NCBI GenBank assembly: GCA_963662545.2
Contig: CAXXLL010000002.1
Coordinates: 512,001 to 576,000, forward strand
Length of the DNA: 64,000 nt
Reading direction: 5' to 3'
Source of the DNA: Gammaproteobacteria bacterium
Lineage (GTDB): Bacteria > Pseudomonadota > Gammaproteobacteria > Ga0077536
This document shows positions 2,143 through 53,075 of the stretch, piece by piece. The notes beneath the pieces are model-generated. The model did not search any database, had not been told where the DNA came from, and was given only the letters and a program-made list of their open reading frames with translations. Numbering within the stretch: the first letter of the stretch is position 1; the number at the start of each line of letters is the position of its first letter. A program made the translations under genes and the position numbers.

Positions 2143-2568
2143 TCAGGCCTGACCGACGCTGCGTACGGCTTCTACCTGGTCGAGGCGGCCACCGGCGTCA
2201 TAAGTGCGTTGCTCTCGCGACACGCCGTAGAGGGTGTCAAGCAGGTTTGAGACCAGGCGTCGGTTCAATGCGATGGCACCACCGTTCGCGCGATTTGCCA
2301 TCTGGCAGTCGCGGGCAAGTGCTTGCAGTTCGGGCCAATCGCCAGCGATATCCGCGCCTTCTTCCGCGTCACGCGAGCGACGAATTGAATGCGCTGCGGA
2401 TTCGAGCGCTGCGACAATTGTCGATTTGTGCGCGGCTGTCGCTTCGAGGCGCTCGACGTCACGCGTGCGCAACGCGTCGAACTCTTCGGACAGTACGCCG
2501 GACATCTCCGCCATAAGGGCCTCGACGGTTTCCTTCGAAGGCGCAAGCCCGTTCGATTTCGGCGTCAC
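2143..2568 (-). CDS. flgN: Flagellar export chaperone FlgN
   Basis: Helical protein with C..AN.ANG and TY.A.G motifs; overlaps the flgM stop. Confidence 0.85.
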   Translation of the reverse strand: MTPKSNGLAPSKETVEALMAEMSGVLSEEFDALRTRDVERLEATAAHKSTIVAALESAAHSIRRSRDAEEGADIAGDWPELQALARDCQMANRANGGAIALNRRLVSNLLDTLYGVSREQRTYDAGGRLDQVEAVRSVGQA

Positions 2569-2882
2569 GGCTCGCGGCCCTTGGCGCTTATCAGCGCTTC
2601 GAAGGCGGTGAGTTTGTCGGCGATCACCCGTTCATCGATACCATAGCTGCCGCTTTCGATGGATTTTCTGAGTTCGGCCACCTTGGCCTGGTCGACGATG
2701 GGCAGCTTGTCGAGCGAATCGGTAAGGCGCTTCAGGCGGGCGGAGAGGTCGGTCAAGCTGACGACCTCCGATGTTTGCGCGGCTCCGCCTTGCGGTAATT
2801 CGTCGGCTCTACCGACGTTGCGTAAAGTCGGTTTGGGCGGTGTGATCGAATGTGATCCCGGACCTTTTACCTCTGTAACCAT
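2565..2882 (-). CDS. flgM: Anti-sigma28 factor FlgM
   Basis: VSLT...VDQAKVAELRKSIESGSY.ID..IADKL signature. Confidence 0.92.
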   Translation of the reverse strand: MVTEVKGPGSHSITPPKPTLRNVGRADELPQGGAAQTSEVVSLTDLSARLKRLTDSLDKLPIVDQAKVAELRKSIESGSYGIDERVIADKLTAFEALISAKGREP

Positions 2883-2913: not shown

Positions 2914-2940
2914 TTAGCGGATTGGTCTTCATAAACTTTA
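2914..2940 (-). promoter_or_regulatory. sigma28 (FliA) promoter of flgM-flgN-ycgR
   Basis: Minus strand TAAAGTTT-N11-TCCGCTAA versus consensus TAAAGTTT-N11-GCCGATAA. Confidence 0.75.
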
Positions 2941-11385: not shown

Positions 11386-13269
11386 ATGACCGCGAGCACT
11401 TTCAATATCGGTTTGTCCGCCCTGCGGGCCTTTCAACAGGGGCTTGCGACCACCGGCCACAACATCGCCAACGTCAATACCGAGGGATTCAGCCGTCAGC
11501 GCGTCACTTTCGAATCACGTGAACCGCAGTTCATCGGTATTGGCTTCGTCGGTAAAGGCGTCGATACCCAGGGCATTCGTCGGCTTGCCAATCAGTTTCT
11601 GATCGATCAACTGCGATCGACCACGTCCAGCCAGGTCAATGCGGCGATGATGACCGATCTCATCGACCAGGTAGATCGACAGATCGGCGATGGCCTGGTG
11701 GCGAACAGCATGGCGAGTTTCTTCAACGCTCTCAACGACGCCAATGACGATCCGCGGCTGATGGCGACACGACAGGTACTGATGGAAAACGCACAAGCCA
11801 TGGTCGCGCGGTTTGCGGAGCAGGAAGATCTGCTGAACGGACTGTCACGCAGCGTCAACCAGCAAATCACCGGAAAGATCGCCGAGATCAACACGTTCAC
11901 CGAAGCCATCGCTGCGATCAATATCGATATTGCGCGGAGCGCAGGCCTCGCCCAGGGTGAAGCGCCTAGCGACCTGTTGGACATGCGCGACAAAATGCTG
12001 CTCGATCTGTCCCGCCTGATCGGGATAACTACGCAGCCAGGCAACGACGGCATGATCAACGTACTCGCCGGCAGCGGAAATTTACTCGTTACGGGCGGCA
12101 CCCAGGCCAAGCTTCGAGCCATACCCAATGCGCTCGACGCCTCCCGTATTGAAGTCGCCTACGACGTCGCCGGAACCCTGGCGCAGATTACCTCATCCAT
12201 CGATGGGGGTGAGCTCGGTGCACTGATCGAATTCCGCGATGCAGTGCTCGAACCTACCCGCAATGCGATCGGCCGGCTGGCAGTGGGCATCGCCTTGTCG
12301 GTGAACGAGCAGCACCGCGAAGGGATGGACCTGAACGGCGCGCTCGGCGGTGACCTGTTTTCCTTACCTGCGCCCAACGTGAATTCACTCGCGACCAACG
12401 TGGGATCGATAAGCGTCGTCTTCGATCAGAATGATGTCGGTGGCCTCACTACTTCCGATTACCGGTTGCGGCACGACGGTACGGATTTCATCCTGACGCG
12501 CTTGTCCGATAACTCGATGCAGACCTTGTCTGGTGCCGGGCCGTTCAGCGTCGACGGCATCACGATATCGATCACCGGGGCGCCGGCCGCCGGTGACGAA
12601 TACTTGATAAATCCGACCAAACTCGTGCCCCGAGCAATGCAGCTCGCGACTACCGACCCTGCCGAACTCGCCCTGGCGCTGCCGATCCGCACGCAAAGCG
12701 AGTTTGCGAACCTGGGCGACGCCATCGTGTCGATTGGCGAAATTCTGGATCCGACCGATCCGTCGCTCCTCGCGACCACGCAAATAGTGTTCAACGATCC
12801 GCCGACGACATACCAGATCAACGGCGCCGGTCCAACGCTCGCCTACACTAGTGGGGGCAATATCGATGTCAACGGCTGGCGCATACAGGTGACGGGCGCC
12901 CCCGTCGCAGGCGATGTGTTCACCATCGAGAGCAATGCCGGCGGTATCGGCGACAACGGTAACGGGCTCGTCTTAAGTGGCCTGCAATTCACGCCGATAC
13001 TTCAGGGTGGGACCGCCAGTTACCAGGAGGCCTACGGCATTCTCATCGGCGAAGTCGGCTCGGCGGCTCAGCAATCTCGCATCAGCCGCGATGCCCTGAG
13101 CGCGCTTCAGGAAAATGCCCAAATCGCGCGCGATGGGCTTTCCGGCGTCAACCTCGATGAGGAAGCTGCCAACCTGTTGCGCTTCCAGCAGGCTTACCAG
13201 GCCGCGGCGCAGATCATCATCGCCGCGAACGAAGCATTCGAAGCATTGCTCTCGGCGGTGCGGAGGTAG
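11386..13269 (+). CDS. flgK: Hook-associated protein FlgK
   Basis: TTGHNIANVNTEGFSRQ, SGVNLDEEAANL..FQQAYQA. Confidence 0.96.
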   Translation: MTASTFNIGLSALRAFQQGLATTGHNIANVNTEGFSRQRVTFESREPQFIGIGFVGKGVDTQGIRRLANQFLIDQLRSTTSSQVNAAMMTDLIDQVDRQIGDGLVANSMASFFNALNDANDDPRLMATRQVLMENAQAMVARFAEQEDLLNGLSRSVNQQITGKIAEINTFTEAIAAINIDIARSAGLAQGEAPSDLLDMRDKMLLDLSRLIGITTQPGNDGMINVLAGSGNLLVTGGTQAKLRAIPNALDASRIEVAYDVAGTLAQITSSIDGGELGALIEFRDAVLEPTRNAIGRLAVGIALSVNEQHREGMDLNGALGGDLFSLPAPNVNSLATNVGSISVVFDQNDVGGLTTSDYRLRHDGTDFILTRLSDNSMQTLSGAGPFSVDGITISITGAPAAGDEYLINPTKLVPRAMQLATTDPAELALALPIRTQSEFANLGDAIVSIGEILDPTDPSLLATTQIVFNDPPTTYQINGAGPTLAYTSGGNIDVNGWRIQVTGAPVAGDVFTIESNAGGIGDNGNGLVLSGLQFTPILQGGTASYQEAYGILIGEVGSAAQQSRISRDALSALQENAQIARDGLSGVNLDEEAANLLRFQQAYQAAAQIIIAANEAFEALLSAVRR

Positions 13270-13274
13270 GCGAT

Positions 13275-14477
13275 ATGCGGGTCAGCTATAACCAGCTTTT
13301 TCAACAACCGCTCAATCGCATTCTGGAATTGCAACGGCATATATACGACGTCCAGCAGCAGATCGCGAGCGGGCGGCGGGTCGTGCAACCCGCTGACGAT
13401 CCGGTCGCGGCGGCGACCGTCATGCAGGTGAACGAGCGCATCCAGGCAGCCGCGCAGTTCGATCGCAACGGCGCCCAGGCTGAACAACGCCTCGCGCTCG
13501 CCGAGGACGTCATGCGCGGTGTGAGCAACGCGCTGCAGCGGGTCCACGAACTCGTGCTGCAGGGGCGCAACGAAACGCTGGGAGCTGCCGACCGGCGCGC
13601 GCTGGCACTCGAAGTGCGCGCGCAGCTCGATGTGCTGGCCGATCTCGGCAACACGCGTAATGCCTCCGGCGAGTACATTTTTGCCGGCGCTCAGGCAACG
13701 ACGCGGCCGTTTACCCGCGACTTCGCCGGCAATGTCAGCTTTAACGGCGACCAGGTCGTCAGGCAGATTCAGATCTCGGAAACCCGTGCCGTCGGAGAAA
13801 GTTTTTCGGGTGACGAAGCGCTGATGTCGATACGCAACGGCAACGGGATATTTTTTACGAGCATGGCGCTCGGCAATACCGGCACCGCGCAGATCAGCGA
13901 CAACATCGTATCTGATCCGAGCGCGTTTCTAACACATGATTTCCGCATCAGTTTTACCAGCCCCACGACTTTCGACGTGATCGACGATACGCTCGGCATG
14001 ACCGTATTGGCGGCGCAGCCGTACACGGAAGGCAACGCCGTCGCATTCTCCGGCATGCAAGTGACGCTATTCGGCCTTCCCGACGCGGGTGACGAGTTCT
14101 TGTTACGCCCGAGCCGCAATCAGTCGATGTTCGATACCCTCAACACGATCGCCGGCACCATGGAAACGGATTTTGCCAACCCGGCCAGCGCCACCCGCTT
14201 CGGCTTCGACATGGACCGTTCGATTGAAGATCTCAACCAGGCCATCGAGCATGTTGCGCAGATCCGGGCTACCGCGGGGGCACGGCTGAATACCATCGAA
14301 GGACAGCGCGAGGTTCATGCAGATGTGGCACTCAACCTGCAGATCCTGCGTTCCAAGCTGGAGGACGTGGACCTCGCGGAGGCGATCAGCCTGCTGGTGC
14401 AGGAGACGACGGCGCTCGAGGCGGCTCAGGCATCTTTTGTCCGGGTGCAGGGGCTGACCTTGTTCAATTTCCTCTAA
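13275..14477 (+). CDS. flgL: Hook-associated protein FlgL
   Basis: QQIASGRRV..PADDP, G.YIFAG, C-terminal V.GL.LFNFL. Confidence 0.95.
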   Translation: MRVSYNQLFQQPLNRILELQRHIYDVQQQIASGRRVVQPADDPVAAATVMQVNERIQAAAQFDRNGAQAEQRLALAEDVMRGVSNALQRVHELVLQGRNETLGAADRRALALEVRAQLDVLADLGNTRNASGEYIFAGAQATTRPFTRDFAGNVSFNGDQVVRQIQISETRAVGESFSGDEALMSIRNGNGIFFTSMALGNTGTAQISDNIVSDPSAFLTHDFRISFTSPTTFDVIDDTLGMTVLAAQPYTEGNAVAFSGMQVTLFGLPDAGDEFLLRPSRNQSMFDTLNTIAGTMETDFANPASATRFGFDMDRSIEDLNQAIEHVAQIRATAGARLNTIEGQREVHADVALNLQILRSKLEDVDLAEAISLLVQETTALEAAQASFVRVQGLTLFNFL

Positions 14478-14545
14478 CGCCGCTGCATAGGCAGGATCTT
14501 AGGCGTTGAACTGAAACGCCGAGGCATTACCGAGCGGCACAATAA

Positions 14546-14644
14546 AACCACAGAGACCACTGAGTACACAGAGAAAACCATTGTTTTGTGACCTGTAAAC
14601 GGTCTTTTTTCCTTTTCTCCGTGTACTCCGTGACCTCTGTGGTT
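14546..14644. repeat. Palindromic REP-like element, 32-bp arms with ~9-nt periodicity
   Basis: AACCACAGAGACCACTGAGTACACAGAGAAAA (14546-14577) is the near-perfect reverse complement (28/32) of 14613-14644. Confidence 0.75.
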
Positions 14645-14699
14645 CGTTAAGACGGTATTTTGGAGTTACGGACTCAAGAACCAACTTATGAGCGCCACT

Positions 14700-14726
14700 T
14701 AAAGGCCGGGCCACCGTGGCCGATAA
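14700..14726 (+). promoter_or_regulatory. Perfect sigma28 promoter
   Basis: TAAA-N15-GCCGATAA exact consensus; RBS GGAGG at 14756-14760. Confidence 0.85.
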
Positions 14727-14767
14727 AGATTCCGGACCCCTTTCGATTCGGTCCCGGAGGCGCTGCC

Positions 14768-14974
14768 ATGCAAGTGCACGAAGATGCTCGAATCGAGCGA
14801 CTCTACTGCGAAATTCGTACCTTGACGGCGATGCGTCTGCAGGCCGTAGCTGTGGCCGATTGGGCCTGGGTCGACGTCCTGGAATGGAAACGCGGCGCCT
14901 GTCGTGACGAACTCGCAAGCGCATGCGCTGCCGCAATGGAGGGCCACCACGGCCATTTGTTGAGCGCTGCCTGA
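14768..14974 (+). CDS. Short FliT-like protein (68 aa)
   Basis: LT.M.L.A....DW..V..LE..R pattern resembles FliT; good RBS; position immediately before fleQ matches fliT. Confidence 0.55.
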   Translation: MQVHEDARIERLYCEIRTLTAMRLQAVAVADWAWVDVLEWKRGACRDELASACAAAMEGHHGHLLSAA

Positions 14975-15181
14975 GGCACGCGCCCTCTGACCGGCCCGAG
15001 TGGTCGCCGTTGATTCTATCGGCGTCGAAAACCTGTCGCTGAACACGGGTTCCGATCGTGGCTTACAGTCACTTATGCCACCAATGGAAGTAACACGGTA
15101 AGGATCGATCCCTAAAGTCCATTTGGATGCCTCAGTAGATCGCCAGAATTGTGTCATTTCGCGATTCAAGCTCACGATTTC

Positions 15182-15210
15182 TTGACACTTCCTCCGCGTA
15201 CCGGTTAAAT
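15182..15210 (+). promoter_or_regulatory. sigma70-type promoter of fleQ
   Basis: TTGACA-N17-TTAAAT. Confidence 0.55.
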
Positions 15211-15321
15211 CCGTCTCAGGCCGTTCGCCGCCGCGTAGAAAATGCGGCGCGGGCGATCGCCGTCCACCGGCTAGCGGGGCCTGCCCCGGCCGGCGGAGAC
15301 AATCAAGAGGGAATTACAAAA

Positions 15322-16764
15322 ATGCCCAGAACGTCGCCGGTGCTTATCATCGAGCGCGACGACGAGGCCGCGCGCCACGTCGAAGCGATTTTGAGCTACC
15401 TCGAAATGACGCCGCTGGTGGTCGATCCCGAAGGCGATTTCTTAGGGCCCCTGGAACAGGAGCCAACGCCCTACATGATATTGCTCGGTGAATGCGGCGA
15501 CGGTAAAACGCTCACCGATGTTTTCAAACGTATCAAGGCGGCTGATCCGTATACGCCCGTCCTGTTGATGACCGGCTCTGGATCCACATCGGTCAGCGCG
15601 GATCTCGAACACGATGCATTGGCCCGCGTGCCACTGCCCCTGCGCCAGACCGATCTCGAATCCGCGCTGCAAAAAGTCAAAACCTACCGCGAAAACCGCC
15701 ACCAGGAAGGTTCACCGCGCTCGGTCGAGTTGTTCCGCAGCCTCGTTGGCGGCAGTCCCGGGATCCAACGCGTACGCAACATGATCGAAATGGTTGCCAC
15801 TAGTGACGCGAACGTCCTCATCGTCGGCGATTCCGGCACCGGGAAGGAGGTCGTTGCACGCCACGTGCATCACCACTCCAACCGCCGCAGTAAACCCTTC
15901 GTGCCTTTAAACTGTGGTGCGATTCCGGCGGATTTGCTCGAAAGCGAATTGTTCGGCCATGAAAAAGGAGCTTTTACCGGGGCCATTACCAGCCGGCAGG
16001 GCCGCTTCGAGATGGCGGACGGCGGCACGCTGTTCCTCGATGAAATCGGCGACATGAGCCTACCCATGCAGGTCAAGCTGCTGCGGGTTCTGCAAGATCG
16101 CAGTTTCGAGCGCGTCGGCAGCAGCCGCAGCGTCACGGTTAATGTCCGCATCATCGCGGCGACCCACGTTAACCTCGAACGGGCGATTCAGGAAGGCCGC
16201 TTTCGTGAAGATCTCTTTTACCGCCTAAACGTATTTCCGATCGAAACTCCACCGCTTAGGGAACGCACCGACGATTTGCCGCTGTTGGTCAACGATATCG
16301 TGGAGCGGCTCGAACACGAAGGTCGCGGGACCATCCGCATGACCTCCTCGTGCGTTGAATCGCTCACATCGTACCACTGGCCCGGCAACGTACGCGAATT
16401 GGCGAACCTGGTCGAACGCCTGTCGATCCTCTACCCAAACGGGGTCGTCGACGTTCACGATTTGCCGGAAAAGTATCGCTCTGCGGAAGTCGTCACGCGA
16501 GCGCCGGCAAAGCCGTCGCTCGCCGTCCTGCCCGATATCGCGGCGAGCCCCGATGACAGCGGGATAGCGCGGCTGCCGCGCTCGGGTCTGGATCTGAAAA
16601 TCCACTTGACTGGTATCGAGCGGGATTTGATCCGCCAGGCTCTGGATAACACGGACTGGGTCGTTGCGCACGCGGCGAAACGACTGCGCATGGGTCGCAC
16701 GACACTGGTCGAAAAAATGCGTAAATTCGACCTCTCGCGGAGCGATCAAGTGACGGTTCTTTGA
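15322..16764 (+). CDS. fleQ: Flagellar master regulator FleQ/FlrA (sigma54 enhancer-binding protein)
   Basis: FleQ-like N-domain, ELFRSLVG, GDSGTGKE, GAFTGA, HTH VVAHAAKRL...RTTLVEKMRK. Confidence 0.93.
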   Translation: MPRTSPVLIIERDDEAARHVEAILSYLEMTPLVVDPEGDFLGPLEQEPTPYMILLGECGDGKTLTDVFKRIKAADPYTPVLLMTGSGSTSVSADLEHDALARVPLPLRQTDLESALQKVKTYRENRHQEGSPRSVELFRSLVGGSPGIQRVRNMIEMVATSDANVLIVGDSGTGKEVVARHVHHHSNRRSKPFVPLNCGAIPADLLESELFGHEKGAFTGAITSRQGRFEMADGGTLFLDEIGDMSLPMQVKLLRVLQDRSFERVGSSRSVTVNVRIIAATHVNLERAIQEGRFREDLFYRLNVFPIETPPLRERTDDLPLLVNDIVERLEHEGRGTIRMTSSCVESLTSYHWPGNVRELANLVERLSILYPNGVVDVHDLPEKYRSAEVVTRAPAKPSLAVLPDIAASPDDSGIARLPRSGLDLKIHLTGIERDLIRQALDNTDWVVAHAAKRLRMGRTTLVEKMRKFDLSRSDQVTVL

Positions 16765-16828
16765 CACGCGTTGACGCCGGCGAACCTCGCTATTCTCCAA
16801 CTCACTGATAATCAAGCCCTGATCTCGG

Positions 16829-16844
16829 TGGCACGGTCCTTGCT
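16829..16844 (+). promoter_or_regulatory. sigma54 promoter of fleSR
   Basis: TGGCACGGTCCTTGCT, near-perfect consensus. Confidence 0.8.
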
Positions 16845-16903
16845 CATGCTCTGTCGCGCAGACGTCGATCTGACGCGCAAAATTTGTGAAGCCAACATCG
16901 AGC

Positions 16904-18142
16904 ATGAACTCGCAAGCTACGAATACTGCCGAACAGCTCTGCGACGCATTCGCAGAATTCGAAGACGCTTCGCAAACACTGTCCGCCTTCTACCGTGAAC
17001 TGGAACATCAAGTAGCGAGCCTCACCGCAGAACTTTCCGCCTCGCGCGCGGAACAGGTTCGCGAGTTTGCCGAGAAGGAACGCCTGGCGGCGCGCCTCGA
17101 AAATCTTCTCGAAGCCTTGCCGGGCGGAGTCGTCGTCCTCGATCAGCACGGCCGCGTGCAGGAGTTCAACCCGGCGGCGACCGATCTCCTGGGTGACTTG
17201 GTCCCGGGGGAATCCTGGAACCTGGTCGTGGCACGGGCGTTCGCGCCGCGTTGGGACGATGGTCACGATATTTCGCTCAAGGACGGTCGCGGAGTCAACA
17301 TCGCCACCCAGGCACTGAGCGGCGAACCCGGTCAAATTCTGCTGCTCAAGGACGTCACGGAAACGCGGCGCCTGCAGGAACAACTAGCCCACTCCAAGCG
17401 GATCTCGGCGAAGACGGAAATGGCGGCCGCGATGGCGCATCAGATCCGAACGCCGCTCGCCGCAGCCCTGCTCAATACGGGTAACCTCAAGCGCCGCGGG
17501 GTCGCCGATGCCGAGCGGGATCGCACCGTTGAACGCGCACTGAAGTCGTTGCGCAAACTCGAGCGACTGGTCGACGACATGCTGCTGTTTGCCCGCGGTG
17601 GCAAACTCGAGGTCGAGGAAATCACGAATACCGATCTACTCACCGCGATCGAATCAGCGGCTGCGGATGCATTCGACTACAAAGAGTTTGATATTGGCTT
17701 CGAGCCGGAAGCGCACGAAGGTGCGGTTTTCGCCAATGTTGCGGCCTTGACGAGCGTAGCGCTCAATCTGATCGACAACGCCTGGCATGCGTGCAAGGGA
17801 CGAGGTCGTATCCTCATCCGATCACGCACCTCGGCCGGCGCGCTTGAAATTATGTTCGAAGACAATGGGCCAGGGGTGAACCCCGGTGAATACGAAAAGA
17901 TTTTCGAACCCTTTCATTCGATCCGCAAGAACGGGACCGGTCTCGGCTTGTCGATCGCGCGATCCGTTGCGCGGGCGCATGCGGGCGAACTCTGCGTGAA
18001 CGTCGAGACCACCTCGGGCGCGTGTTTCATCATGCGCCTGCCGTTGATCGCGTCTATATCGTCGCCTTACGAGCCGCATCGGCCACCCGGCGGCGCGCAC
18101 GCGGATGTTCCCCAAACCATCCGGTTCCAACAAGCGGGGTAA
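16904..18142 (+). CDS. fleS: PAS sensor histidine kinase FleS/FlrB
   Basis: N-terminal coiled coil, PAS, AHQIRTPL H-box, NLIDNA, DNGPG, GTGLGL. Confidence 0.92.
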   Translation: MNSQATNTAEQLCDAFAEFEDASQTLSAFYRELEHQVASLTAELSASRAEQVREFAEKERLAARLENLLEALPGGVVVLDQHGRVQEFNPAATDLLGDLVPGESWNLVVARAFAPRWDDGHDISLKDGRGVNIATQALSGEPGQILLLKDVTETRRLQEQLAHSKRISAKTEMAAAMAHQIRTPLAAALLNTGNLKRRGVADAERDRTVERALKSLRKLERLVDDMLLFARGGKLEVEEITNTDLLTAIESAAADAFDYKEFDIGFEPEAHEGAVFANVAALTSVALNLIDNAWHACKGRGRILIRSRTSAGALEIMFEDNGPGVNPGEYEKIFEPFHSIRKNGTGLGLSIARSVARAHAGELCVNVETTSGACFIMRLPLIASISSPYEPHRPPGGAHADVPQTIRFQQAG

Positions 18143-19943: not shown

Positions 19944-21626
19944 ATGGCTGAAGTAGTCGCCGCTGACCCTCAAACCCACGTCATGGTCCTGTTGCGGCAG
20001 GCCGGCGTGATGATCGGCCTCGCGGCGAGTGTCGCGCTGGGCTTTTACGTTGTTACGTGGGCGCGCACGCCGAACTTCGCGGTGCTCTATACCGATCTGC
20101 CCGATCGCGACCTGAGCCAGGTGGTCGAAGCGCTGCAAAGCCACGATATTGCGTATCGCATGGACCACCGCGGCGGCGTGATACTCGTCGATTCTGCGCG
20201 TGTGCACGATGCTCGTCTCAAACTGGCATCGGCCGGTCTACCAAAGAGCGCGGACATGGGATTCGAGATGCTGCAGGAGAATCAGGGTTTCGGCACCAGC
20301 CAGTTCCTCGAACAAGCGCGTTATCAACACGCCGTCGAAGGCGAGCTATCGCGTTCGATCTCCCACATCAATAATGTGCGCTCAGCGCGCGTGCATCTGG
20401 CAATACCCAAGCAATCCGCGTTCGCTCGCACCCGCCGCGATCCCTCCGCTTCAGTTATCGTCGATCTGTACAACGGGCGACGGCTCGAACCGCACCAGAG
20501 TGCTGCCATCGTGCATATGGTGTCGGCCGCCGTCCCCGGATTGTCGACGCGAGGCGTTACCGTCATCGATCAGCGCGGTAATCTGTTGACCGATGCTCAC
20601 GGCGGTACCGACGATCTCGCCCTGACGGCGAAGCGATTTGAATACACGCGCCGGCTGGAGAAATCGTACATCAACCGCGTCGAAGCGATCCTTGCGCCGC
20701 TGGTAGGCACTGATGGCGTACATGCCGAGGTGACGGCCGACCTCGATTTTACAGCTACCGAGCAGACGCGGGAAAGCTTCAACCCGGATCTACCGGCCGT
20801 GCGCAGCGAAAGCCTGCTCGTAGAAGAACGTCAAGGCAGCGCGGTTGGGGGTGTTCCCGGCGCATTGACCAATGAGCCCCCAAGTGTCGCTGCAGCCCCG
20901 GAAGTGACGACCGACGTGGAAGAAGGCACCGGCGCTCCGCCCCCGATGCCCAGCAACCGCCGTAACCAGACCACGCGTAATTACGAACTGGATCGCACCA
21001 TCAGCCATACCAAGCCGGCCGTTGGTAGCCTGCGACGCTTGTCGGTCGCGGTCGTTGTTCGGAATCCGACGCCGCCGCCCGCCGCAGGCACGGCAGCGGC
21101 CCAGAGTGCGTCGCCGGAGAGCGAGCCCTTGAGCGAGGCGCAACTCGCACGCATGACCCATCTGGTTAAGGAAGCGATCGGTTTCGATGCGACACGCGGT
21201 GACTCGGTCAGCGTTACCAGCGCCGATTTTCTGAGGCCTGAAACGCCGGAGCCATTACCGGAGCTGCCCATTTGGAAACAGGATTGGGTCTTGAGTGCCG
21301 GCAAGCAGGCCCTCGGCGGCGCATTCGCTCTGTTCATCCTGTTGGGCGTGATTCGCCCGGCGATGAAATCTCTCCTGGCCAAACCGATGCACGTGACGGC
21401 GCTTGCCGGTGGTGCGGGGGCAGGCCTTACCGCTCTCACGCAAGGTGGCGATGCACAAGCCGCCCAACCGATGAAGCCGGCGCTATCGTATGCGGAGCAA
21501 GCGAGCAGTGGTCAGGCGCTACTGCCGTCGGGAGCGGGCGAACCGAGCCTCGATCAGGTCAAGCAATATGTCTCCCAGGATCCCAAGGTGGCAGCACAAG
21601 TAGTCAAGGGCTGGGTTGGAGACTGA
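19944..21626 (+). CDS. fliF: MS-ring protein FliF
   Basis: GFE...FGTSQF.E, EGEL.RSI, ARVHLAIP, NYELDRTI; two TM segments. Confidence 0.96.
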   Translation: MAEVVAADPQTHVMVLLRQAGVMIGLAASVALGFYVVTWARTPNFAVLYTDLPDRDLSQVVEALQSHDIAYRMDHRGGVILVDSARVHDARLKLASAGLPKSADMGFEMLQENQGFGTSQFLEQARYQHAVEGELSRSISHINNVRSARVHLAIPKQSAFARTRRDPSASVIVDLYNGRRLEPHQSAAIVHMVSAAVPGLSTRGVTVIDQRGNLLTDAHGGTDDLALTAKRFEYTRRLEKSYINRVEAILAPLVGTDGVHAEVTADLDFTATEQTRESFNPDLPAVRSESLLVEERQGSAVGGVPGALTNEPPSVAAAPEVTTDVEEGTGAPPPMPSNRRNQTTRNYELDRTISHTKPAVGSLRRLSVAVVVRNPTPPPAAGTAAAQSASPESEPLSEAQLARMTHLVKEAIGFDATRGDSVSVTSADFLRPETPEPLPELPIWKQDWVLSAGKQALGGAFALFILLGVIRPAMKSLLAKPMHVTALAGGAGAGLTALTQGGDAQAAQPMKPALSYAEQASSGQALLPSGAGEPSLDQVKQYVSQDPKVAAQVVKGWVGD

Positions 21627-23591: not shown

Positions 23592-24968
23592 GTGACCAAT
23601 CAACCAAGCAACGCGCAGCGCTGGACCGCACCGCTCAAGACCTATTTCGAGCGTCTGAGCGAACCGCCGGCCTTGATCGTCGAAGGTAAGTTGTCGCGCA
23701 TGATTGGACTGACCCTGGAAGCCGTTGGCTGCCAGGCGGCCATCGGTGATCGCTGCCGGGTGTTCAATCCCAACGGCACCGATGTCGATGCCGAAGTCGT
23801 CGGCTTTTCCGGAGAGAGGTTGTTCTTGATGCCCACGGGTTCGCCGCACGGGCTCGCTCCAAATGCACGCGTGATCCCGATCGGCGGAGCCGGTGAAATC
23901 GGGGTCGGCGAAGCGCTTTTGGGTCGGGTGCTGGATGGCTCGGGCCAACCGCTAGACGGCCGCGGCGCCCTCGAGTTCGATCACAAGCGCCCGCTCTACG
24001 GCGAGACGATGAACCCGCTGGAGCGCGAGCTGATCACCGATTGCCTGGACGTGGGTGTGCGATCCATCAACGCTCTGCTCACTGTGGGACGTGGCCAGCG
24101 CCTGGGGCTATTCGCGCCGAGCGGCGTCGGCAAGAGCGTCTTGCTTGGCATGATGACGCGATTCACCGATGCCGACGTCATCGTCGTCGGTCTCGTCGGC
24201 GAGCGTGGCCGGGAGGTCAAGGAGTTCATCGATCAGATCTTGGGACCCGCAGGGCTCGCGCGGTCGGTCGTGGTCGCGACGCCGGCCGACAATCCGCCGC
24301 TGATGCGCCTCCACTGCGCCGCTATCGCCACGAGTATCGCGGAATATTTCAGAGACACCGGACGCCACGTGCTGTTGCTCATGGATTCGCTCACCCGTTA
24401 CGCCCAGGCGCAACGTGAAATTGCTCTGACCATCGGTGAACCACCAGCGACACGCGGTTTTCCACCATCGGTCTTTGCCCGCTTGCCACAGTTGGTGGAA
24501 CGCGCCGGTACCGGACTCGCCGGCCAAGGATCGATCACGGCCATCTACACGGTATTGACCGAGGCGGACGACCCGAACGACCCCATCGCCGAAGCCGCCC
24601 GCGCGATACTAGACGGGCACATCGTACTATCGCAACGCCTGGCCGAACGCGGGATCTATCCCGCGATCGACATCGAAGCGTCCATCAGCCGCACGATGCC
24701 GCAGATTACAGGAGAATCCCATCAGAAATACGCCAAGGCGTTGCGCTATTTCCATGCGCTTTACGAACAAAACGCAGATCTGTTCAGCGTCGGCGCGTAC
24801 CAGCACGGTACCAGCGTGGAACTCGATACTGCGGTGGACATGCGCCCTGCGATCATGGAATTTCTGAGCCAGGATATGCGAGTAGCGGTGGATTACGATA
24901 CCGCAGTGGCAGCACTTGCGAGCGTGACCGGGGGCGACGTCATCGACGCCGCTGCTACTGTCTCGTGA
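23592..24968 (+). CDS. fliI: Flagellar export ATPase FliI
   Basis: FAPSGVGKS P-loop, GERGREV, DSLTRYA.AQREI, ILDGHIVLS. Confidence 0.96.
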   Translation: MTNQPSNAQRWTAPLKTYFERLSEPPALIVEGKLSRMIGLTLEAVGCQAAIGDRCRVFNPNGTDVDAEVVGFSGERLFLMPTGSPHGLAPNARVIPIGGAGEIGVGEALLGRVLDGSGQPLDGRGALEFDHKRPLYGETMNPLERELITDCLDVGVRSINALLTVGRGQRLGLFAPSGVGKSVLLGMMTRFTDADVIVVGLVGERGREVKEFIDQILGPAGLARSVVVATPADNPPLMRLHCAAIATSIAEYFRDTGRHVLLLMDSLTRYAQAQREIALTIGEPPATRGFPPSVFARLPQLVERAGTGLAGQGSITAIYTVLTEADDPNDPIAEAARAILDGHIVLSQRLAERGIYPAIDIEASISRTMPQITGESHQKYAKALRYFHALYEQNADLFSVGAYQHGTSVELDTAVDMRPAIMEFLSQDMRVAVDYDTAVAALASVTGGDVIDAAATVS

Positions 24969-25461: not shown

Positions 25462-26466
25462 TCAGTTTCTGGCGACGCCGATAGACGACACGCCCGATCG
25501 TGAGATCAGATCCTCGAAGTACTGAATGGTTCGGGCAAGACCCTCGCGCAGTTCGACCCGCGGTGTCCAGTCAAGTATTTCTTTTGCGCGGGTGATGTCC
25601 GGCTGGCGTTGTTTGGGATCGTCCGTTGGCAGCGATTCGTTGATAATCTTGGTTTTCGATCCAGTCATCTCAACGATCATATCGGCAAGTTCGATTATCG
25701 TGAATTCGTGTGGATTACCGAGGTTGACCGGACCCGTGATCTCGGGGCCCGATTCCATCAGACTGGTCAGCCCCGCTATCAAGTCGTCAACAAAACAGAA
25801 CGAGCGCGTCTGAGAACCGTCACCGTAAATTGTAATCGGTTGATTCGTCAGAGCTTGAACGATGAAATTCGAAACCACGCGCCCGTCATTCGGATGCATG
25901 CGCGGGCCGTAGGTGTTGAAGATCCGTGCTACCTTGATTTGGACTGAATGCTGGCGGTGGTAGTCAAAGAACAGCGTCTCCGCGCAGCGCTTTCCTTCGT
26001 CATAGCAGGCCCGCGGCCCGATCGGATTCGTGTGACCCCAGTAGCTTTCCGGTTGCGGATGAACAGCCGGGTCACCATAAATCTCGCTGGTAGACGCCTG
26101 TAGAATTCGTGCCTTGATCCGTTTTGCGAGCCCCAGCATGTTGATGGCGCCGTGCACGCTGGTCTTGGTCGTTTGCACGGGATCGAATTGATAATGTACG
26201 GGCGATGCCGGACACGCGAGGTTATATATCTCATCAGCCTCGACGTATAGTGGGAACGTGATGTCTTGGCGCATCAACTCGAAAAACGGGTTGTTGAGCA
26301 AATGAATCAGGTTGTCCTTGGATCCCGTATAGAAATTGTCCACGCACAGCACGTCATGCCCGCGTGCGATCAGCTTATCGCACAGGTGTGATCCGAGAAA
26401 ACCGGCGCCGCCGGTCACCAGAATGCGTTTACGCGTGGCCGTGGGGAGGTGCGAAGATTGATTCAG
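25462..26466 (-). CDS. UDP-glucuronate decarboxylase (UDP-xylose synthase, extended SDR)
   Basis: [47 protein letters not shown]; apparent CTG start at 26466 after GAGGAG. Confidence 0.92.
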
Positions 26467-27977: not shown

Positions 27978-28475
27978 ATGGCCGAGGAGATCGTCGAACA
28001 AGCCCCGCAAACTGGCGGCGGCAAAAAAAAGCTCATCATCATTATCGCGGCATCCACCCTGATCATCATCGCCGCCGCCGTCGGCGTCTCGATGGCGCTC
28101 AGCGGCGGTGACGAGAATACCGAAGCCGGAGCGCAGGACGAACCCAAGCAACCCGAGTTCATTTACGTCGATATCAATCCGGAGTTCGTCATCAACCTGG
28201 TTGATAAGAACAACCGGCCGAAATTTCTGAAGGCTGAAATGTCGGTGGCGACGACGGATCCGGATGTGGAGGAAGCCGTCGCGCTGCACATGCCAGCCAT
28301 CCGCAACAGCCTGGTACTGCTCCTCAGCCGGCAGGTCTATGACAACCTCATACCCCACGAGGGCAAGGAGCAACTCCGCGCGCAGGCGCTCGCCGAGGTC
28401 CAGGCCGTACTTGAGGCCCGCATCGGAAGCTCCGGTGTCGACGAGCTCTACTTTTCCAACTTCGTCATGCACTAG
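27978..28475 (+). CDS. fliL: FliL
   Basis: KKKLIII TM segment, FVINL, H.P.IR, EGKE.LR, F..FV. Confidence 0.92.
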   Translation: MAEEIVEQAPQTGGGKKKLIIIIAASTLIIIAAAVGVSMALSGGDENTEAGAQDEPKQPEFIYVDINPEFVINLVDKNNRPKFLKAEMSVATTDPDVEEAVALHMPAIRNSLVLLLSRQVYDNLIPHEGKEQLRAQALAEVQAVLEARIGSSGVDELYFSNFVMH

Positions 28476-33289: not shown

Positions 33290-33451
33290 GGAACCTCTGA
33301 ATAAGTCATGGCCCATCTGCCTTGCCCATGAAATCGCGCAGCTCGGCGTTACGAACCTTGTCCATAGTCCCCGCTATGGCCGGCGATTCGTGCCTTGATC
33401 TGCACAATTTCACGAACCATTCAGACGCACCATGACTTATTCAGAGGTTCC
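33290..33451. mobile_element. 162-bp MITE, copy 2 (IS5-like ends)
   Basis: Same IRs as 23388-23549; 4-bp duplication CTAA overlapping the flhB stop. Confidence 0.85.
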
Positions 33452-33466
33452 CTAAACGGCAGCGAC

Positions 33467-35597
33467 ATGGCCACCACCCTTGTGAACAACGGACCGGTAA
33501 TCAATTTGCTGAGCAATATTCAGCGCTGGGGTGTCGGTGCGCCGCTCCTGCTGATGGCCATGCTGGCCATGATGGTGATCCCGCTGCCGCCGTTTCTGCT
33601 GGACATCTTGTTCACTTTCAATATCTCGCTTGCGCTGGTGGTGCTGCTGGCTGGCATCTACAGCAAGCGGCCGCTCGATTTCGCCGTGTTCCCGACCCTG
33701 CTCCTGATCGCCACCTTGTTGCGCCTGTCGCTCAACGTCGCTTCGACGCGGATCGTCCTGCTGAACGGCCACACCGGCACCGACGCCGCGGGGCAGGTGA
33801 TCCGCGCCTTTGGCGACTTCGTCGTCGGCGGTAACTACGCGGTCGGTTTCGTCGTTTTCGCGATCCTGGTGATCATCAATTTCGTGGTGGTCACCAAGGG
33901 CGCGGGCCGTATTGCGGAAGTCAGTGCGCGATTCACTCTGGACTCGATGCCGGGCAAGCAGATGGCGATCGACGCGGATCTCAACGCCGGCATCGTCAAC
34001 CAGGAAGAAGCGAAGCTGCGCCGGCAGGAAGTGGCGCAAGAGGCCGATTTCTACGGCGCCATGGACGGGGCCAGCAAGTTCGTCCGTGGCGACGCCATTG
34101 CCGGCATCCTCATCCTGTTCATCAACATCTTGGGCGGCCTCGTGATCGGCACCGTGCAGCACGGGATGCCGCTGGGAGAAGCCGTTCGCGTCTTTACTCT
34201 ACTCACCATCGGCGACGGCTTGGTCGCTCAGATCCCTTCGCTGCTGCTGGCGACGGCCGCGGCGATCATGCTCACACGCGTATCGACCGAACACGACGTC
34301 GGCGAGCAGGTTCTCACCCAGCTTTTCGACCGTCCCAAGGGCCTGGCAGTAACCGGCGGCGTGCTCGGGGTCATGGGGGTCATTCCGGGCATGCCCAACG
34401 TTCCCTTTCTACTCATGGCCGTCGGCGCTCTCGCGGGCGCCTGGTGGATAAACGAACGCAACAAGGAGCGCGCCGTCGCGGCCGAACTGCAGCCGCCCGC
34501 GCCGCCGTTGCCGGAGACGATCGAGCTTAGCTGGGACGACGTACTGCCGACCGATGTCATCGGCTACGTTCGGCCTCGAAGTCGGCTACCGCCTCATTCC
34601 GCTGGTCGATCGCGAGCAAAACGGTCAATTACTCGGGCGGCTTCGCGGCGTGCGCAAGAAACTGTCACAGGAACTCGGCTTTCTCATTCCGGCGGTGCAT
34701 ATTCGGGACAACCTGGATCTCGAGCCGAGCACCTATCGCTTGTCGATTCACGGCGCGGTGATCGGTCAGTCGGTGGTGCAGATGGACAAGGAACTCGCGA
34801 TCAACCCCGGTGAGGTCTACGGCGAACTCAAGGGCACGGTAACACGCGACCCCGTGTTTGATCTCGACGCCGTCTGGATCGGGGAGGACCAGCGCGAGCA
34901 GGCGCAGTCGCTGGGCTACACCGTGGTCGACGCGAGTACCGTTATTGCGACCCATTTGAGCCAGATCATCCAGGAACACGCCTGCGCGTTACTTGGACAC
35001 GACGAGGCGCAGAAACTGCTCGATGGGCTCACCCGTACGAATCCGAAACTGGTCGAAGATCTGGTGCCTAAGGTGCTGCCTTTGAGCGTTGTCGTGAAAG
35101 TGCTGCAAAACCTGCTGGCCGAGCAAATCCCGGTGCGCGACATCCGCACCATTCTCGAAGTGCTGGCCGAACACGGACCGCAGACCACCGACACCATCAC
35201 CCTGACCGGACTCGTACGCGCGTCACTGGGCCGGCTTATCGTGCAGCAGATCAACGGCCTCGGCGGCGAACTGCCCGTGATCACGCTCGATTTTTCACTG
35301 GAGCGGCTCTTGCAGCAGTCGATGGAAACGATGACGAGCGGGGCCATGGCCGTCGAGCCCAACCTCGCGAACCGGCTGCTCACCGCCCTGCGCGAAGCGC
35401 ACGAAGCACGCGAACTTGCCGGACAGCCCTCCGTTTTGTTGGTTGCCGATGGCCTGCGCGAATTTCTCGCACGGTTTACGCGTGCCGCGATCAAGAGCTT
35501 AAACGTCGTCGGGTTCAATGAGATCCCGAGCGACACACAGATTCGGATCGTCGCGACCGTCGGCGATGCGGCGTTGAGCGACGAAGGGGCGGCTTGA
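33467..35597 (+). pseudogene. flhA: FlhA frameshifted by a 10-bp insertion at 34565-34574
   Basis: TM half (EVSARFTLD.MPGKQMAIDADL, FYGAMDGASKFV) and cytoplasmic half (LEVGYRLIP...) are in different frames; deleting TACGTTCGGC restores DVIGLEVGYRLIP. Confidence 0.9.
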
Positions 35598-52341: not shown

Positions 52342-53075
52342 CACTCAGCCAGGGCAGCGGCTCGGGCTTGTTTGAAAATAGCGCGGCGGTTGAGGTGGCG
52401 TTGGTGGTTGAAATGGTTATAGATCGAGGCATGGACAGAGGCGAATTTCTGTAGGGTCTTGATGTCTCTGAAGCGCGCCATTGCCCCTTCCCGCCTTCGA
52501 AAGGGCTGATGTGAGTTTTCTGCCCGGTTGTTCAGCCAACGCCCGGTCTCTTGGCAACCTTCGTTGCCGATCACCTTCATCGCAGCACGATATGACGGTA
52601 GCCTATCCGTGACCATCGAAGCCGGCCGGCCATAACGCTTCATCGTGCCCTTCAGGAACTCAAGCGCAGCCTTGCGGTCCCGCCGTTTCGTCACAAAACC
52701 CTCAAGGACTTCGCCTTCATGGTCAACGGCACGCCATAGGTAATGTGTCTTGCCGTTGATGCGGACAAACACTTCATCAAGGTGCCAGCGCCAGTTCGAA
52801 TAGGATCCATGATGAACACGGCGTGTCCGGATCTCCGCGGCAAACAGCGGACCAAAGCGGTTCCACCCATACCGCACGGTCTCATGGCAGATCTCGATGC
52901 CGCGCTCGAACAGGAGATCTTCGACCTGTCTCAGCGACAAAGGGTATCGGACATACAACATCACCGCGAAGCGGATCACTTCGGGCGAACTGTTGAAATA
53001 ACGGAAAGGATTGTGCATCACCGGAGGCTACGAGGCCTTACTTTTCAGCTCAAGCCCATTTACTCTGACAATGCC
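52342..53075 (-). mobile_element. IS6-family element, 3' end truncated by IS3
   Basis: GGCATTGTCA IR at 53075; W.LDE.FV.ING..YLWRAVD.EG, VTD, NNRAE.SH. Confidence 0.92.

What the first reader, a model, noticed from the sequence alone, without database searches (positions are those of the whole stretch)
14478..15321. Flagellin slot is empty: a perfect sigma28 promoter drives only a tiny FliT-like ORF
Seen: flgL is followed by a palindrome, an exact TAAA-N15-GCCGATAA promoter, an RBS, a 68-aa ORF, then fleQ. No fliC, flaG, fliD or fliS appears anywhere in the window. Known: in Pseudomonas/Vibrio-type clusters fliC-flaG-fliD-fliS-fliT occupy this interval. Inference: either the filament genes moved elsewhere, or this encodes a filament-less hook-basal-body machine (secretion or sensing) with stators and a brake retained.
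Basis: partly seen in the sequence, partly recalled or inferred. Interest (0 to 1): 0.72.

Follow-up and report, generated by a model that had tools for sequence, protein, structure and literature searches.

The report
Half-size FliT gene beside fleQ
The gap after flgL is real, but the flagellar filament genes sit intact elsewhere in the same genome, and the tiny gene left in the gap is a shortened copy of the FliT chaperone kept under a late flagellar promoter.

Summary
flgL (13275-14477) is followed by a palindromic element, an exact TAAA-N15-GCCGATAA motif (14700-14726), GGAGG, a 68-aa ORF (14768-14974) and fleQ (15322-16764). The filament-less reading is refuted. An intact fliC-flaG-fliD-fliS-fliT operon with its own sigma28-type promoter lies 1.33 Mb away on the same contig.

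The 68-aa ORF is a real gene. Orthologues of 50-68 aa were found in 17 genomes of 4 genera. Where the neighbours were read (8 of 17) they sit between flgL and fleQ. 16 of 17 have a sigma28-like motif upstream, and in-frame dN/dS has a median of 0.45 against 1.2-1.5 out of frame. Profile comparison places it as the N-terminal two helices of FliT (96.4%, E 1.3e-9). Relatives with the canonical order carry a full-length FliT between fliS and fleQ.

The short form lacks helices 3-4, including the conserved Tyr that docks FliT on FlhA. It cannot be a normal export chaperone, and its function is unknown.

The palindrome is a 205-bp MITE-like repeat inserted 9 nt upstream of the promoter. This is a modest novelty: a conserved half-FliT paralogue.

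The parts
13275..14477 (+). flgL (hook-filament junction protein 3), the last gene before the interval
   Evidence: Flagellin_N 1.5e-17 plus Flagellin_C, 400 aa. It is the second Flagellin_N match of the genome.
14486..14690 (.). MITE-like dispersed palindromic repeat of 205 bp. It has terminal inverted repeats of about 17 nt (CATAGGnAGnnTCTTAG) and a long internal hairpin at about 14547-14643.
   Evidence: blastn gives 24 HSPs in the own genome, including self. There are 18 matches in G000 and 17 in same-genus G002. An alignment of 6 copies shows where similarity starts and ends. Fold -77.4 kcal/mol, z -5.5. The flgL-to-ORF gaps of G006, G014 and G019 are 98-144 nt and lack it. No Rfam family reaches its gathering score.
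14700..14726 (+). sigma28 (FliA)-type promoter motif TAAAGGCC-N11-GCCGATAA. It is an exact match to TAAA-N15-GCCGATAA and lies 9 nt after the repeat's right end.
   Evidence: A T[AC]AA-N14-17-[GC]CCG[AC]T[AG] motif lies upstream of the orthologous ORF in 16 of 17 genomes (15; L067 after its start was corrected). Background is 0.003 per 160 nt. No transcript data were obtained.
14756..14760 (+). Shine-Dalgarno GGAGG, 7 nt before the ATG
   Evidence: Read from the sequence.
14768..14974 (+). 68-aa ORF (P0001): a truncated FliT paralogue corresponding to helices 1-2 of FliT
   Evidence: alignment; invariant R17, T20, L24, A26, R42; hhalign to the full-length FliT alignment A2 gives 96.4%, E 1.3e-9 over 51 columns; the A2 profile hits this frame in 4 of 4 genomes. 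AF2 gives pLDDT 87.4 and two helices; in-frame dN/dS median 0.45.
15182..15210 (+). fleQ's own sigma70-like promoter, TTGACA-N17-TTAAAT
   Evidence: The block TTCTTGACAC...T(T/C)TAATC is conserved upstream of fleQ in all 6 genomes of 6 genera read. The tool's stricter consensus scan does not list it, because position 2 of the -10 is not A. The P. putida preprint reports a sigma70 PfleQ (passages).
15322..16764 (+). fleQ (sigma54-dependent flagellar master regulator)
   Evidence: Sigma54_activat 9.4e-75, FleQ domain 1.1e-08, HTH_8. It is 75-77% identical to 8 relatives.
2914..2940 (-). sigma28-like promoter TAAAGTTT-N11-TCCGCTAA, 32 nt upstream of flgM (2565-2882, minus strand). It serves as a within-window comparison promoter.
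   Evidence: 2 mismatches; ORF; FlgM 1.5e-12; FlgN and the YcgR-like PilZ follow downstream.

Best explanation
The flgL-fleQ interval is the scar of an old rearrangement, not evidence of a filament-less machine.

In an ancestor of at least four genera of this gammaproteobacterial family, the native filament operon (PfliC-fliC-flaG-fliD-fliS-fliT) came to lie at a distant chromosomal site. The original site kept a sigma28 promoter directly after flgL. It also kept the first half of fliT, directly before fleQ.

That half-gene has persisted as a 50-68-aa protein, a two-helix hairpin equivalent to FliT helices 1-2. It is under purifying selection and has a conserved FliA-type promoter, so it is expected to be made late, together with flagellin and FlgM.

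It lacks helices 3-4. These form the FliD-binding groove and carry the Tyr that docks FliT on the export gate FlhA. It therefore cannot work as a canonical FliD export chaperone; that role falls to the full-length FliT next to fliS.

Most likely (inferred, not shown) it is a small late-stage accessory or regulatory protein. It would act by pairing its exposed helical face with another copy of itself or with a flagellar partner. Its sigma28 transcript may also run on into fleQ.

In this genome a 205-bp MITE-like repeat has additionally been inserted between flgL and the promoter without damaging either.
For: Relocation. Intact fliC, flaG, fliD, fliS and a 95-aa FliT lie at C2 about 1.856-1.860 Mb with a TAAAGTTT...CCGATA promoter. 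In G019 the flagellin match (C1:1685861) and the FliT (C1:1689797) lie about 815 kb from flgL (C1:2504346). The relocated FliS is 47-52% identical to the FliS of relatives with the canonical order. That is similar to FlgL at 44-47%, so the operon is native and not foreign.

Shared arrangement. flgL | small ORF | fleQ was read in 8 genomes: G000, G006, G014, G019 and G076, G068, G067, G063. The small ORF is present in 17 genomes of 4 genera.

Real gene. All 17 frames are open at 50-68 aa. All 43 within-genus pairs have in-frame dN/dS below 1 (median 0.45). The +1 and +2 frames give medians of 1.19 and 1.5.

FliT kinship.
- In genera g6, g11 and g16 the homologue is a 98-137-aa ORF between fliS and fleQ.
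- 12 of 13 of these match Pfam FliT at E<=1, best 1.4e-8.
- Their profile's best PDB hit is 3h3m 'Flagellar protein FliT', E 2.2e-4.
- hhalign of the long against the short alignment gives 96.4%, E 1.3e-9 over 51 N-terminal columns.
- The long profile hits the small-ORF frame in 4 of 4 genomes at profile positions 5-76 of 117. No remnant of positions 77-117 is detectable.
- The G019 orthologue hits PF05400 directly at E 0.007.
- The protein next to fliS is a full-length FliT: hhalign 97.1%, E 6.6e-11 over 88 columns.

Structure. AF2 gives two helices, 2-28 and 32-64, at pLDDT 87.4.

Promoter. It is exact in G000. A sigma28-like motif is present in 16 of 17 orthologous upstream regions against 0.003 expected per region. 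Comparable motifs precede fliC and flgM. In G018 and G015, where fliC still follows flgL, a TAAAG/TTAAG...CCGATA/GCCGCTA motif sits 20-70 nt after the flgL stop, the same place (read by eye).

Missing chaperone parts. FliT helix alpha4 with Leu102 and Tyr106 is the FlhA-binding element, and the Tyr is conserved (PMC5932034, passages). A Tyr is invariant near the C-terminus of both full-length alignments. The short family ends before it.
Against: P0001 itself has no Pfam or NCBIfam hit. The short-family profile has no significant PDB sequence hit. The short family and the FliT next to fliS are not significantly alike (2.4%, E 0.019), so the kinship rests on the bridge through the canonical FliT alignment.

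dN/dS of 0.45 indicates fairly relaxed constraint. Two related genera (G010, G011) have flgL directly followed by fleQ with no small ORF of 45 aa or more, so the gene is dispensable for some relatives.

The family is tiny: 32 proteins at E<=0.001 among 1.84 billion representatives, 3 of them long repetitive proteins. No transcript start, protein or phenotype evidence exists. Every step about function is inference.
Confidence: 0.75

Rival explanations
1. The ORF is a functionless relic of fliT. What selection keeps is the sigma28 promoter, whose transcript reads through into fleQ-fleS-fleR and gives a FliA-to-FleQ feedback.
For: No intrinsic terminator is predicted on the plus strand between the ORF stop (14974) and fleQ. 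In P. putida, fliT, fleQ and fleS are co-transcribed by RT-PCR (passages). dN/dS is only moderately below 1. G010 and G011 lack the ORF. The part after residue about 50 is poorly conserved.
Against: All 17 orthologues keep an open frame of similar length. In-frame dN/dS is below 1 in 43 of 43 pairs, while both other frames have medians above 1. Five positions are invariant across 18 sequences from 4 genera plus a metagenome protein. 15 of 17 end in Ala-Ala. fleQ has its own conserved TTGACA promoter downstream of the ORF.
Confidence: 0.15
2. The small ORF family is unrelated to FliT. The similarity is convergent helical, Ala/Leu/Arg-rich composition.
For: There is no direct Pfam hit for P0001. 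Foldseek finds only generic helical hairpins at E above 1. The Atlas neighbours score 0.77 or less and are unrelated. The profile also pulls three long repetitive proteins.
Against: hhalign gives 96.4%, E 1.3e-9 with a collinear shared motif (LT..ML.AA...DW..V..L..R). The same motif aligns with the solved FliT 3h3m. The gene sits immediately upstream of fleQ, where canonical relatives have fliT. One orthologue hits PF05400. Among Foldseek's hits the Yersinia 'flagella protein' 3nkz ranks 5th (not significant).
Confidence: 0.07
3. One reading: the cluster encodes a filament-less hook-basal-body machine used for secretion or sensing.
For: No filament gene lies in the window. In this assembly flhA carries a 10-bp insertion, which would disable export.
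Against: An intact filament operon with a sigma28 promoter is in the same genome. flgK, flgL, flgM and flgN, which serve filament assembly, are intact. Contigs of two other public runs lack the 10-bp insertion.
Confidence: 0.02

Closest known systems
FliT, the flagellar export chaperone of FliD and anti-FlhD4C2 factor in Salmonella (Pfam PF05400; solved structures include 3h3m)
   Same: The short protein is homologous to the N-terminal helices, with a shared LT..ML.AA..DW..V..L..R motif. It lies in a flagellar cluster, late (sigma28) expression is predicted, and it occupies the position directly upstream of the master-regulator gene, as in fliS-fliT-fleQ relatives.
   Different: It is 50-68 aa with two helices, against about 95-125 aa with four. 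It lacks the groove-forming helix 3 and the FlhA-docking helix 4 with its conserved Tyr (passages). It is not next to fliD or fliS. It coexists with a full-length FliT elsewhere.
Split flagellar clusters of Pseudomonas stutzeri ('Group III' in the P. putida flagellar-cluster preprint, 10.1101/2021.08.29.457346; passages read)
   Same: The cluster is interrupted between fliC and flgL and often between fleQ and fliT, so that fliC-fliT lie in a separate chromosomal region. This is the same kind of relocation as here.
   Different: The passages read do not mention a truncated fliT copy left between flgL and fleQ. Here a half-gene with its own promoter stays behind.
fliC-flaG-fliDST-fleQSR operon of Pseudomonas putida, with internal FliA- and sigma70-dependent promoters (same preprint)
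   Same: There are FliA-type promoters in the filament region, a sigma70 promoter for fleQ, and fliT immediately upstream of fleQ with read-through into it.
   Different: Here the filament genes are gone from this site, and the promoter directly precedes the fliT remnant.
FliTX of Xanthomonas oryzae pv. oryzae (PMC5550985; abstract and section 5 read)
   Same: It is a poorly conserved FliT-like gene in a FleQ/RpoN2/FliA-type hierarchy, up-regulated by FliA and needed for normal filament length.
   Different: FliTX is co-transcribed with fliS and flgZ and is described as a FliT homologue, not a half-size paralogue beside fleQ.
MITE- or REP-type dispersed palindromic repeats of bacteria
   Same: The element is 205 bp, has terminal inverted repeats and a strong hairpin, is non-coding, occurs in many copies in the genome and in a sister species, and sits in intergenic DNA.
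   Different: No target-site duplication and no parent transposase were identified. The family was not matched to any named element.

Membership tests
FliT (PF05400) | Sequence match to the family model at or above the curated cut-off (29.5 bits) | tested here: not met
   P0001 has no hit at E<=10. The best orthologue (G019) scores 17.6 bits, E 0.007. P0001 has no NCBIfam FliT hit.
FliT (PF05400) | Homology to bona fide FliT detectable by profile methods | tested here: met
   hhalign to the alignment of fliS-fleQ intergenic proteins gives 96.4%, E 1.3e-9 over 51 columns. 12 of 13 of those proteins hit PF05400 at E<=1, best 1.4e-8. How many exceed the cut-off was not listed; the first member scores 23.4 bits. 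Their profile hits PDB 3h3m FliT at E 2.2e-4.
FliT (PF05400) | Four-helix architecture of roughly 95-125 aa | tested here: not met
   The protein is 68 aa and the AF2 model has two helices. Orthologues are 50-68 aa. No trace of the C-terminal half is found downstream in any frame.
FliT (PF05400) | C-terminal recognition helix with the conserved Tyr that binds FlhA_C (Tyr106 in Salmonella; PMC5932034 passages) | tested here: not met
   The Tyr is invariant near the C-terminus of both full-length alignments (Y94). The short family ends about 40 residues earlier.
FliT (PF05400) | Gene adjacent to fliD/fliS | tested here: not met
   fliD and fliS are 1.33 Mb away. The ORF lies between flgL and fleQ.
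FliT (PF05400) | Binds FliD (and FliI, FliJ or the master regulator) | not testable with these tools
   No binding evidence was obtained.
sigma28 (FliA) class promoter | TAAA-N15-GCCGATAA-type -35/-10 elements at a suitable distance from a start codon | tested here: met
   The match at 14700-14726 is exact, and the -10 ends 41 nt before the ATG. There are 3 exact sites in the genome against 0.30 expected. The motif is conserved in 16 of 17 orthologous regions.
sigma28 (FliA) class promoter | FliA-dependent transcription start | not testable with these tools
   Only contigs were available for the RNA runs, and none was laid on 14693-15359.
MITE-like repeat | Short non-coding element with terminal inverted repeats in many dispersed copies | tested here: met
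MITE-like repeat | Target-site duplication and a related autonomous IS | not tested
   The flanks were looked at only by eye, with no clear duplication. No search for a parent IS was made.

The most novel reading that the evidence does not exclude
The half-FliT is a dedicated late-stage feedback regulator. In enteric bacteria the regulatory (anti-master-regulator) face of FliT sits in the same protein as the chaperone function. Here the two functions would be split into two genes. The short protein would be made only once sigma28 is released, and would be short-lived because of its conserved C-terminal Ala-Ala tail, which resembles an ssrA/ClpX-type degron (recalled, not tested). It would bind FleQ, FleN or the full-length FliT to reset class II/III expression when a flagellum is finished. 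Its gene has stayed glued to fleQ for that reason.
Probability: 0.12. Interest if true: 0.6.

Novelty: new variant of a known kind. Interest (0 to 1): 0.33.

Why it matters
The practical lesson is a negative one. An 'empty flagellin slot' in a window does not mean a filament-less machine, because filament operons are relocated as a unit in several gammaproteobacterial lineages.

The positive result is small but testable. It is a lineage-restricted family of half-size FliT proteins with a conserved FliA promoter, always next to the master regulator gene and always alongside a full-length FliT elsewhere. If it has a function, it would show which activities of FliT reside in helices 1-2 alone. 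It might also reveal a feedback link between late assembly and FleQ, something not established for FleQ-type hierarchies.

The lineage is also present at near identity in contigs of public runs from 10 studies, including sponge and marine-sediment metagenomes. Two congeneric genomes lack the basal-body genes searched for.

Tried and rejected
Complex prediction of FleQ (9-row alignment) with the short protein (18-row alignment) gave no answer: score 0.00, controls not run. This is not evidence either way.

Foldseek of the two-helix model against the PDB gave no match at E<=0.001, only generic hairpins (14-3-3, ferritin, Rop) and the Yersinia flagella protein 3nkz at rank 5, E 1.3.

The ESM Atlas by features gave a best score of 0.77, with unrelated clusters.

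The short-family profile gave nothing below E 0.1 against PDB sequences.

Rfam over 13000-17000 gave nothing at gathering score. The MIR841 hit on the repeat's hairpin scores 32 bits against a cut-off of 200 and is spurious.

The 5'UTR fold of 14733-14790 is no more stable than shuffles, z +0.82.

RNA evidence was sought but not obtained. The two metatranscriptome runs (X19, X20) gave contigs inside fleQ, fliF, fliI and at 28218-28465, but none on 14693-15359. They are contigs, so no starts or strands can be read.

With FlgL it returned only three MAGs titled Gammaproteobacteria bacterium at 36-44% identity.

The other two exact sigma28 sites of the genome precede a 237-aa protein without Pfam hits and a hybrid histidine kinase. 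They are uninformative for calibration.

The antisense ORFs over the interval (158 and 145 aa) have no Pfam hit, and their extent varies from 50 to 641 aa among four genomes. They were rejected as genes.

Foreign origin of the distant operon was rejected on FliS identity. No tree was built.

Earlier notes of this scan held nothing near this place.
Full report
OBSERVATION

- flgL ends at 14477 and matches Flagellin_N/C.
- An exact TAAA-N15-GCCGATAA motif lies at 14700-14726.
- GGAGG lies at 14756-14760.
- A 68-aa ORF runs 14768-14974.
- fleQ starts at 15322 and matches Sigma54_activat, the FleQ domain and HTH_8.

The exact 12-base motif occurs three times in the 5.58-Mb genome, against 0.30 expected from composition. 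It is the only exact copy in the window.

The rest of the window is a Pseudomonas/Vibrio-type flagellar cluster:
- flgA-flgM-flgN and a YcgR-like PilZ gene;
- flgD to flgL, fleQ, fleS/fleR-like genes, fliE to fliI, fliK and fliM;
- fliP, fliR, flhB, flhA, flhF, fleN-like, fliA and motAB.

WHERE THE FILAMENT GENES ARE

I searched the whole genome with three Pfam models. Flagellin_N is found only in flgL and at C2:1859553-1859960. FliD_C is found only at C2:1856673-1857308. FliS is found only at C2:1856124-1856468.

That region (L005) encodes, on the minus strand, fliC (500 aa), flaG (130 aa), fliD (453 aa), fliS (152 aa) and a further 95-aa ORF, P0002. It is flanked by unrelated metabolic and transport genes. 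It is preceded by TAAAGTTT-N12-CCCGATAT.

The window is C2:512001-576000, so the operon is 1.33 Mb away.

The relocated FliS is 47% and 52% identical to the FliS of two family members that keep the canonical order. FlgL between the same groups is 44-47% identical. The operon is therefore native rather than imported. No tree was built.

THE ARRANGEMENT IS OLD AND SHARED

FlgL was found in 25 of 41 related genomes. I read the DNA after flgL in 15 of them, G000 included.
- In G006, G014 and G019, the closest flagellated relatives (FlgL 62-65% identical), flgL is followed by a small ORF and then fleQ, as in G000.
- In G010 and G011, flgL abuts fleQ with no ORF of 45 aa or more.
- In G004, G015 and G018, fliC follows flgL.

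In G019 the flagellin match and the P0002 homologue lie about 815 kb from flgL.

A profile of the small ORFs (A1) found matches in 35 of 81 genomes of the family. I read 17 short-type and 13 long-type loci. Six weak hits (E above 0.001) were not read.

The short type (50-68 aa) occurs in 17 genomes of 4 genera: g1 (G000 only), g5, g13 and g18, the last in 11 of 11 genomes. I confirmed flgL upstream and fleQ downstream in 8 of the 17.

WHAT THE SMALL ORF IS

It is a real coding sequence. All 17 orthologous frames are open. The 18-sequence alignment has five invariant positions: R17, T20, L24, A26 and R42.

I computed Nei-Gojobori dN/dS for the 43 within-genus pairs with dS between 0.05 and 1.5. 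Values range 0.13-0.75, the median is 0.45, and all 43 are below 1. The same alignments read in the +1 and +2 frames give medians of 1.19 (10 of 43 below 1) and 1.5 (3 of 43 below 1). The pairs are not independent.

Antisense ORFs over the region have no Pfam hit and vary widely in extent.

In genera g6, g11 and g16 the homologue of the small ORF is a 98-137-aa ORF lying between fliS and fleQ. This is the fliT position of Pseudomonas. The evidence linking the two is as follows.
- 12 of 13 of these long proteins match Pfam FliT at E<=1, best 1.4e-8.
- Their profile's best PDB sequence hit is 3h3m 'Flagellar protein FliT', E 2.2e-4.
- Profile-profile comparison of the long (A2) and short (A1) alignments gives 96.4% probability, E 1.3e-9, over 51 collinear columns covering only the N-terminal half of FliT.
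- The A2 profile run on translated flgL-fleQ intergenic DNA hits the small-ORF frame in 4 of 4 genomes, at profile positions 5-76 of 117. It finds no trace of positions 77-117 in any frame.
- The G019 orthologue hits PF05400 directly at E 0.007, below the cut-off.

P0001 itself hits nothing. AlphaFold2 with the 5-row alignment predicts two helices, 2-28 and 32-64, at pLDDT 87.4. Foldseek cannot discriminate such a hairpin.

THE SECOND FliT

P0002, the ORF after fliS in the distant operon, has homologues in 20 of 81 family genomes. In 14 of the 18 loci I read, it directly follows a FliS C-terminus. Its alignment (A3, 17 rows) matches the canonical FliT alignment over the full length: 97.1%, E 6.6e-11, 88 columns. 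4 of 17 members hit PF05400.

A3 and the short family are not significantly alike. The genomes read in full here (G000, G006, G014, G019) therefore carry two FliT-derived genes: a full-length one travelling with fliD and fliS, and a half-size one that stayed beside fleQ.

Both full-length alignments have an invariant Tyr near the C-terminus. In Salmonella FliT, helix alpha4 with Leu102 and Tyr106 is the element that docks the FliT-FliD complex on FlhA_C, and the Tyr is described as absolutely conserved (PMC5932034, passages). The short family ends before helix 3. It therefore cannot be a canonical export chaperone.

PROMOTERS

A sigma28-like motif (T[AC]AA-N14-17-[GC]CCG[AC]T[AG]) lies within 160 nt upstream of the small ORF in 16 of 17 genomes. 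One search found 15; L067 was added after its start was corrected. The remaining genome, L073, shows TTAAG...GCCGCTAG by eye. The background rate of this pattern in the G000 genome is 0.003 per 160 nt.

The organism's fliC and flgM have comparable motifs. In G018 and G015, where fliC still follows flgL, a similar motif sits 20-70 nt after the flgL stop (by eye). The small ORF's promoter is therefore positionally equivalent to PfliC. This fits a model in which the block from fliC through fliS was lost from the original site, leaving PfliC joined to fliT. That model is an inference.

fleQ keeps its own conserved TTGACA-N17-T(T/C)(T/A)AAT block (15182-15210 in the window) in all 6 genomes read. 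The P. putida preprint likewise reports a sigma70 PfleQ. No plus-strand terminator is predicted between the ORF and fleQ, so read-through is possible.

THE PALINDROME

Window 14486-14690 is one copy of a dispersed 205-bp repeat with terminal inverted repeats of about 17 nt and a long internal hairpin.
- It gives 24 blastn HSPs in the own genome.
- It gives 18 matches in G000 and 17 in the congeneric G002, but only single weak matches in 3 of the other 39 genomes.
- It begins 8 nt after the flgL stop and ends 9 nt before the -35 element.
- The orthologous gaps of G006, G014 and G019 (98-144 nt) lack it.

It is a recent MITE-like insertion that left flgL and the promoter intact.

IS THE MACHINE INTACT?

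In this assembly flhA is split: ORFs 33395-34813 and 34554-35597 carry FHIPEP positions 1-302 and 331-656. The cause is a 10-bp insertion at 34560-34569 relative to G006, G019 and G011.

Contigs of two public runs from two studies (X1, X3) match the window with 0-3 differences per piece. Both lack exactly these 10 letters, at full depth (table 4). The insertion is therefore an assembly error or a private variant, and flhA is intact in the population. The same contigs cover 14693-16053 without any difference.

FUNCTION

What is shown is identity, conservation, truncation and promoter motif. What is inferred is late expression, loss of chaperone docking, and action through helix pairing.

The C-terminus ends in Ala-Ala in 15 of 17 genomes although the preceding residues vary. 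This resembles ssrA/ClpX-type C-terminal degrons (recalled), and is offered only as a lead.

WHAT IS KNOWN

Relocation of fliC-fliT away from flgL and fleQ is described for P. stutzeri genomes (passages). Poorly conserved FliT-like genes under FliA control are described in Xanthomonas.

My two literature searches surfaced no description of a half-size FliT paralogue beside fleQ. Neither search asked for that feature specifically, and subscription journals are not covered. The supplements of the preprint were not available and may list such ORFs.

VERDICT

The filament-less interpretation is refuted. 'FliT-like' is upheld in a qualified form. Novelty is modest: a new variant of a known kind.

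Noticed in passing
window 34560-34569 (flhA, ORFs 33395-34813 and 34554-35597): The assembly has a 10-bp insertion that frameshifts flhA relative to three relatives. Contigs of two other public runs lack these 10 letters at full depth. It is probably an assembly error or a private variant, not a dead export gate.
   Followed up: yes
window 14486-14690; other copies include G000:C3:1054948-1055171 and C3:1595783-1596002: This is a family of 205-bp MITE-like palindromic repeats with about 17-nt terminal inverted repeats. It gives about two dozen hits in this genome and 17 in congeneric G002, and almost none in other relatives. Neither a parent transposase nor a target-site duplication was determined.
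   Followed up: partly
G001 and G002 (same genus): G001 (89% complete) has a flagellin gene and a FliT next to fliS, but no FlgL or FlhA match. G002 (95% complete) has neither flagellin nor FlhA, yet keeps a 28-aa open frame 92% identical to the FliT C-terminus. Filament and basal-body loci appear to be lost independently in this genus, or they lie in unassembled parts.
   Followed up: partly
window 42794-63354: Directly after motAB the window turns into an insertion-sequence field. It holds rve-type transposases (42794-43642, 50903-51955, 54472-55341), two IS66 transposases (47895-49478, 56070-57650), an IS240-type transposase (52335-53021), and three tandem copies of a 448-aa DDE_Tnp_1 transposase gene spaced 1703 bp apart (58602-59948, 60305-61651, 62008-63354).
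   Followed up: no
short-family proteins, C-termini: 15 of 17 orthologues end in Ala-Ala (for example LLSAA, RLTAA, VATAA, RRIAA) although the 10-15 residues before it are variable. The two exceptions (G014, G064) end in HG. This may be a C-terminal degron, but it was not tested.
   Followed up: partly
L032 (G011) and L033 (G010): In two further genera flgL is followed directly by fleQ (gaps of about 170 nt) with no small ORF of 45 aa or more. Neither the short FliT nor the P0002-type FliT was found in these genomes with my queries. Where their filament genes lie was not examined.
   Followed up: no
window 25462-26418 (minus strand): A GDP-mannose 4,6-dehydratase/epimerase-family gene sits on the opposite strand inside the flagellar cluster, between fliI and fliK. 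It may relate to flagellin or surface glycosylation.
   Followed up: no
window 16131-16830, 20504-20664, 24433-24693, 28218-28465: Short contigs from two metatranscriptome runs (X19, X20) match fleQ, fliF, fliI and one further stretch with 0-2 differences. The tool warns that DNA can be present in such libraries, so this is only a hint that the cluster is expressed in that setting.
   Followed up: partly
loci L089, L092, L093, L096, L097, L100 (genus g18), downstream of the FliT next to fliS: In g18 the relocated filament operon is followed by a gene whose product begins with a Rossmann-type VLVVGAGFAGAV...HIGGNA motif. From memory this looks like UDP-galactopyranose mutase. In G000 the downstream neighbour differs, so the operon's surroundings are not the same in all genera.
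   Followed up: no
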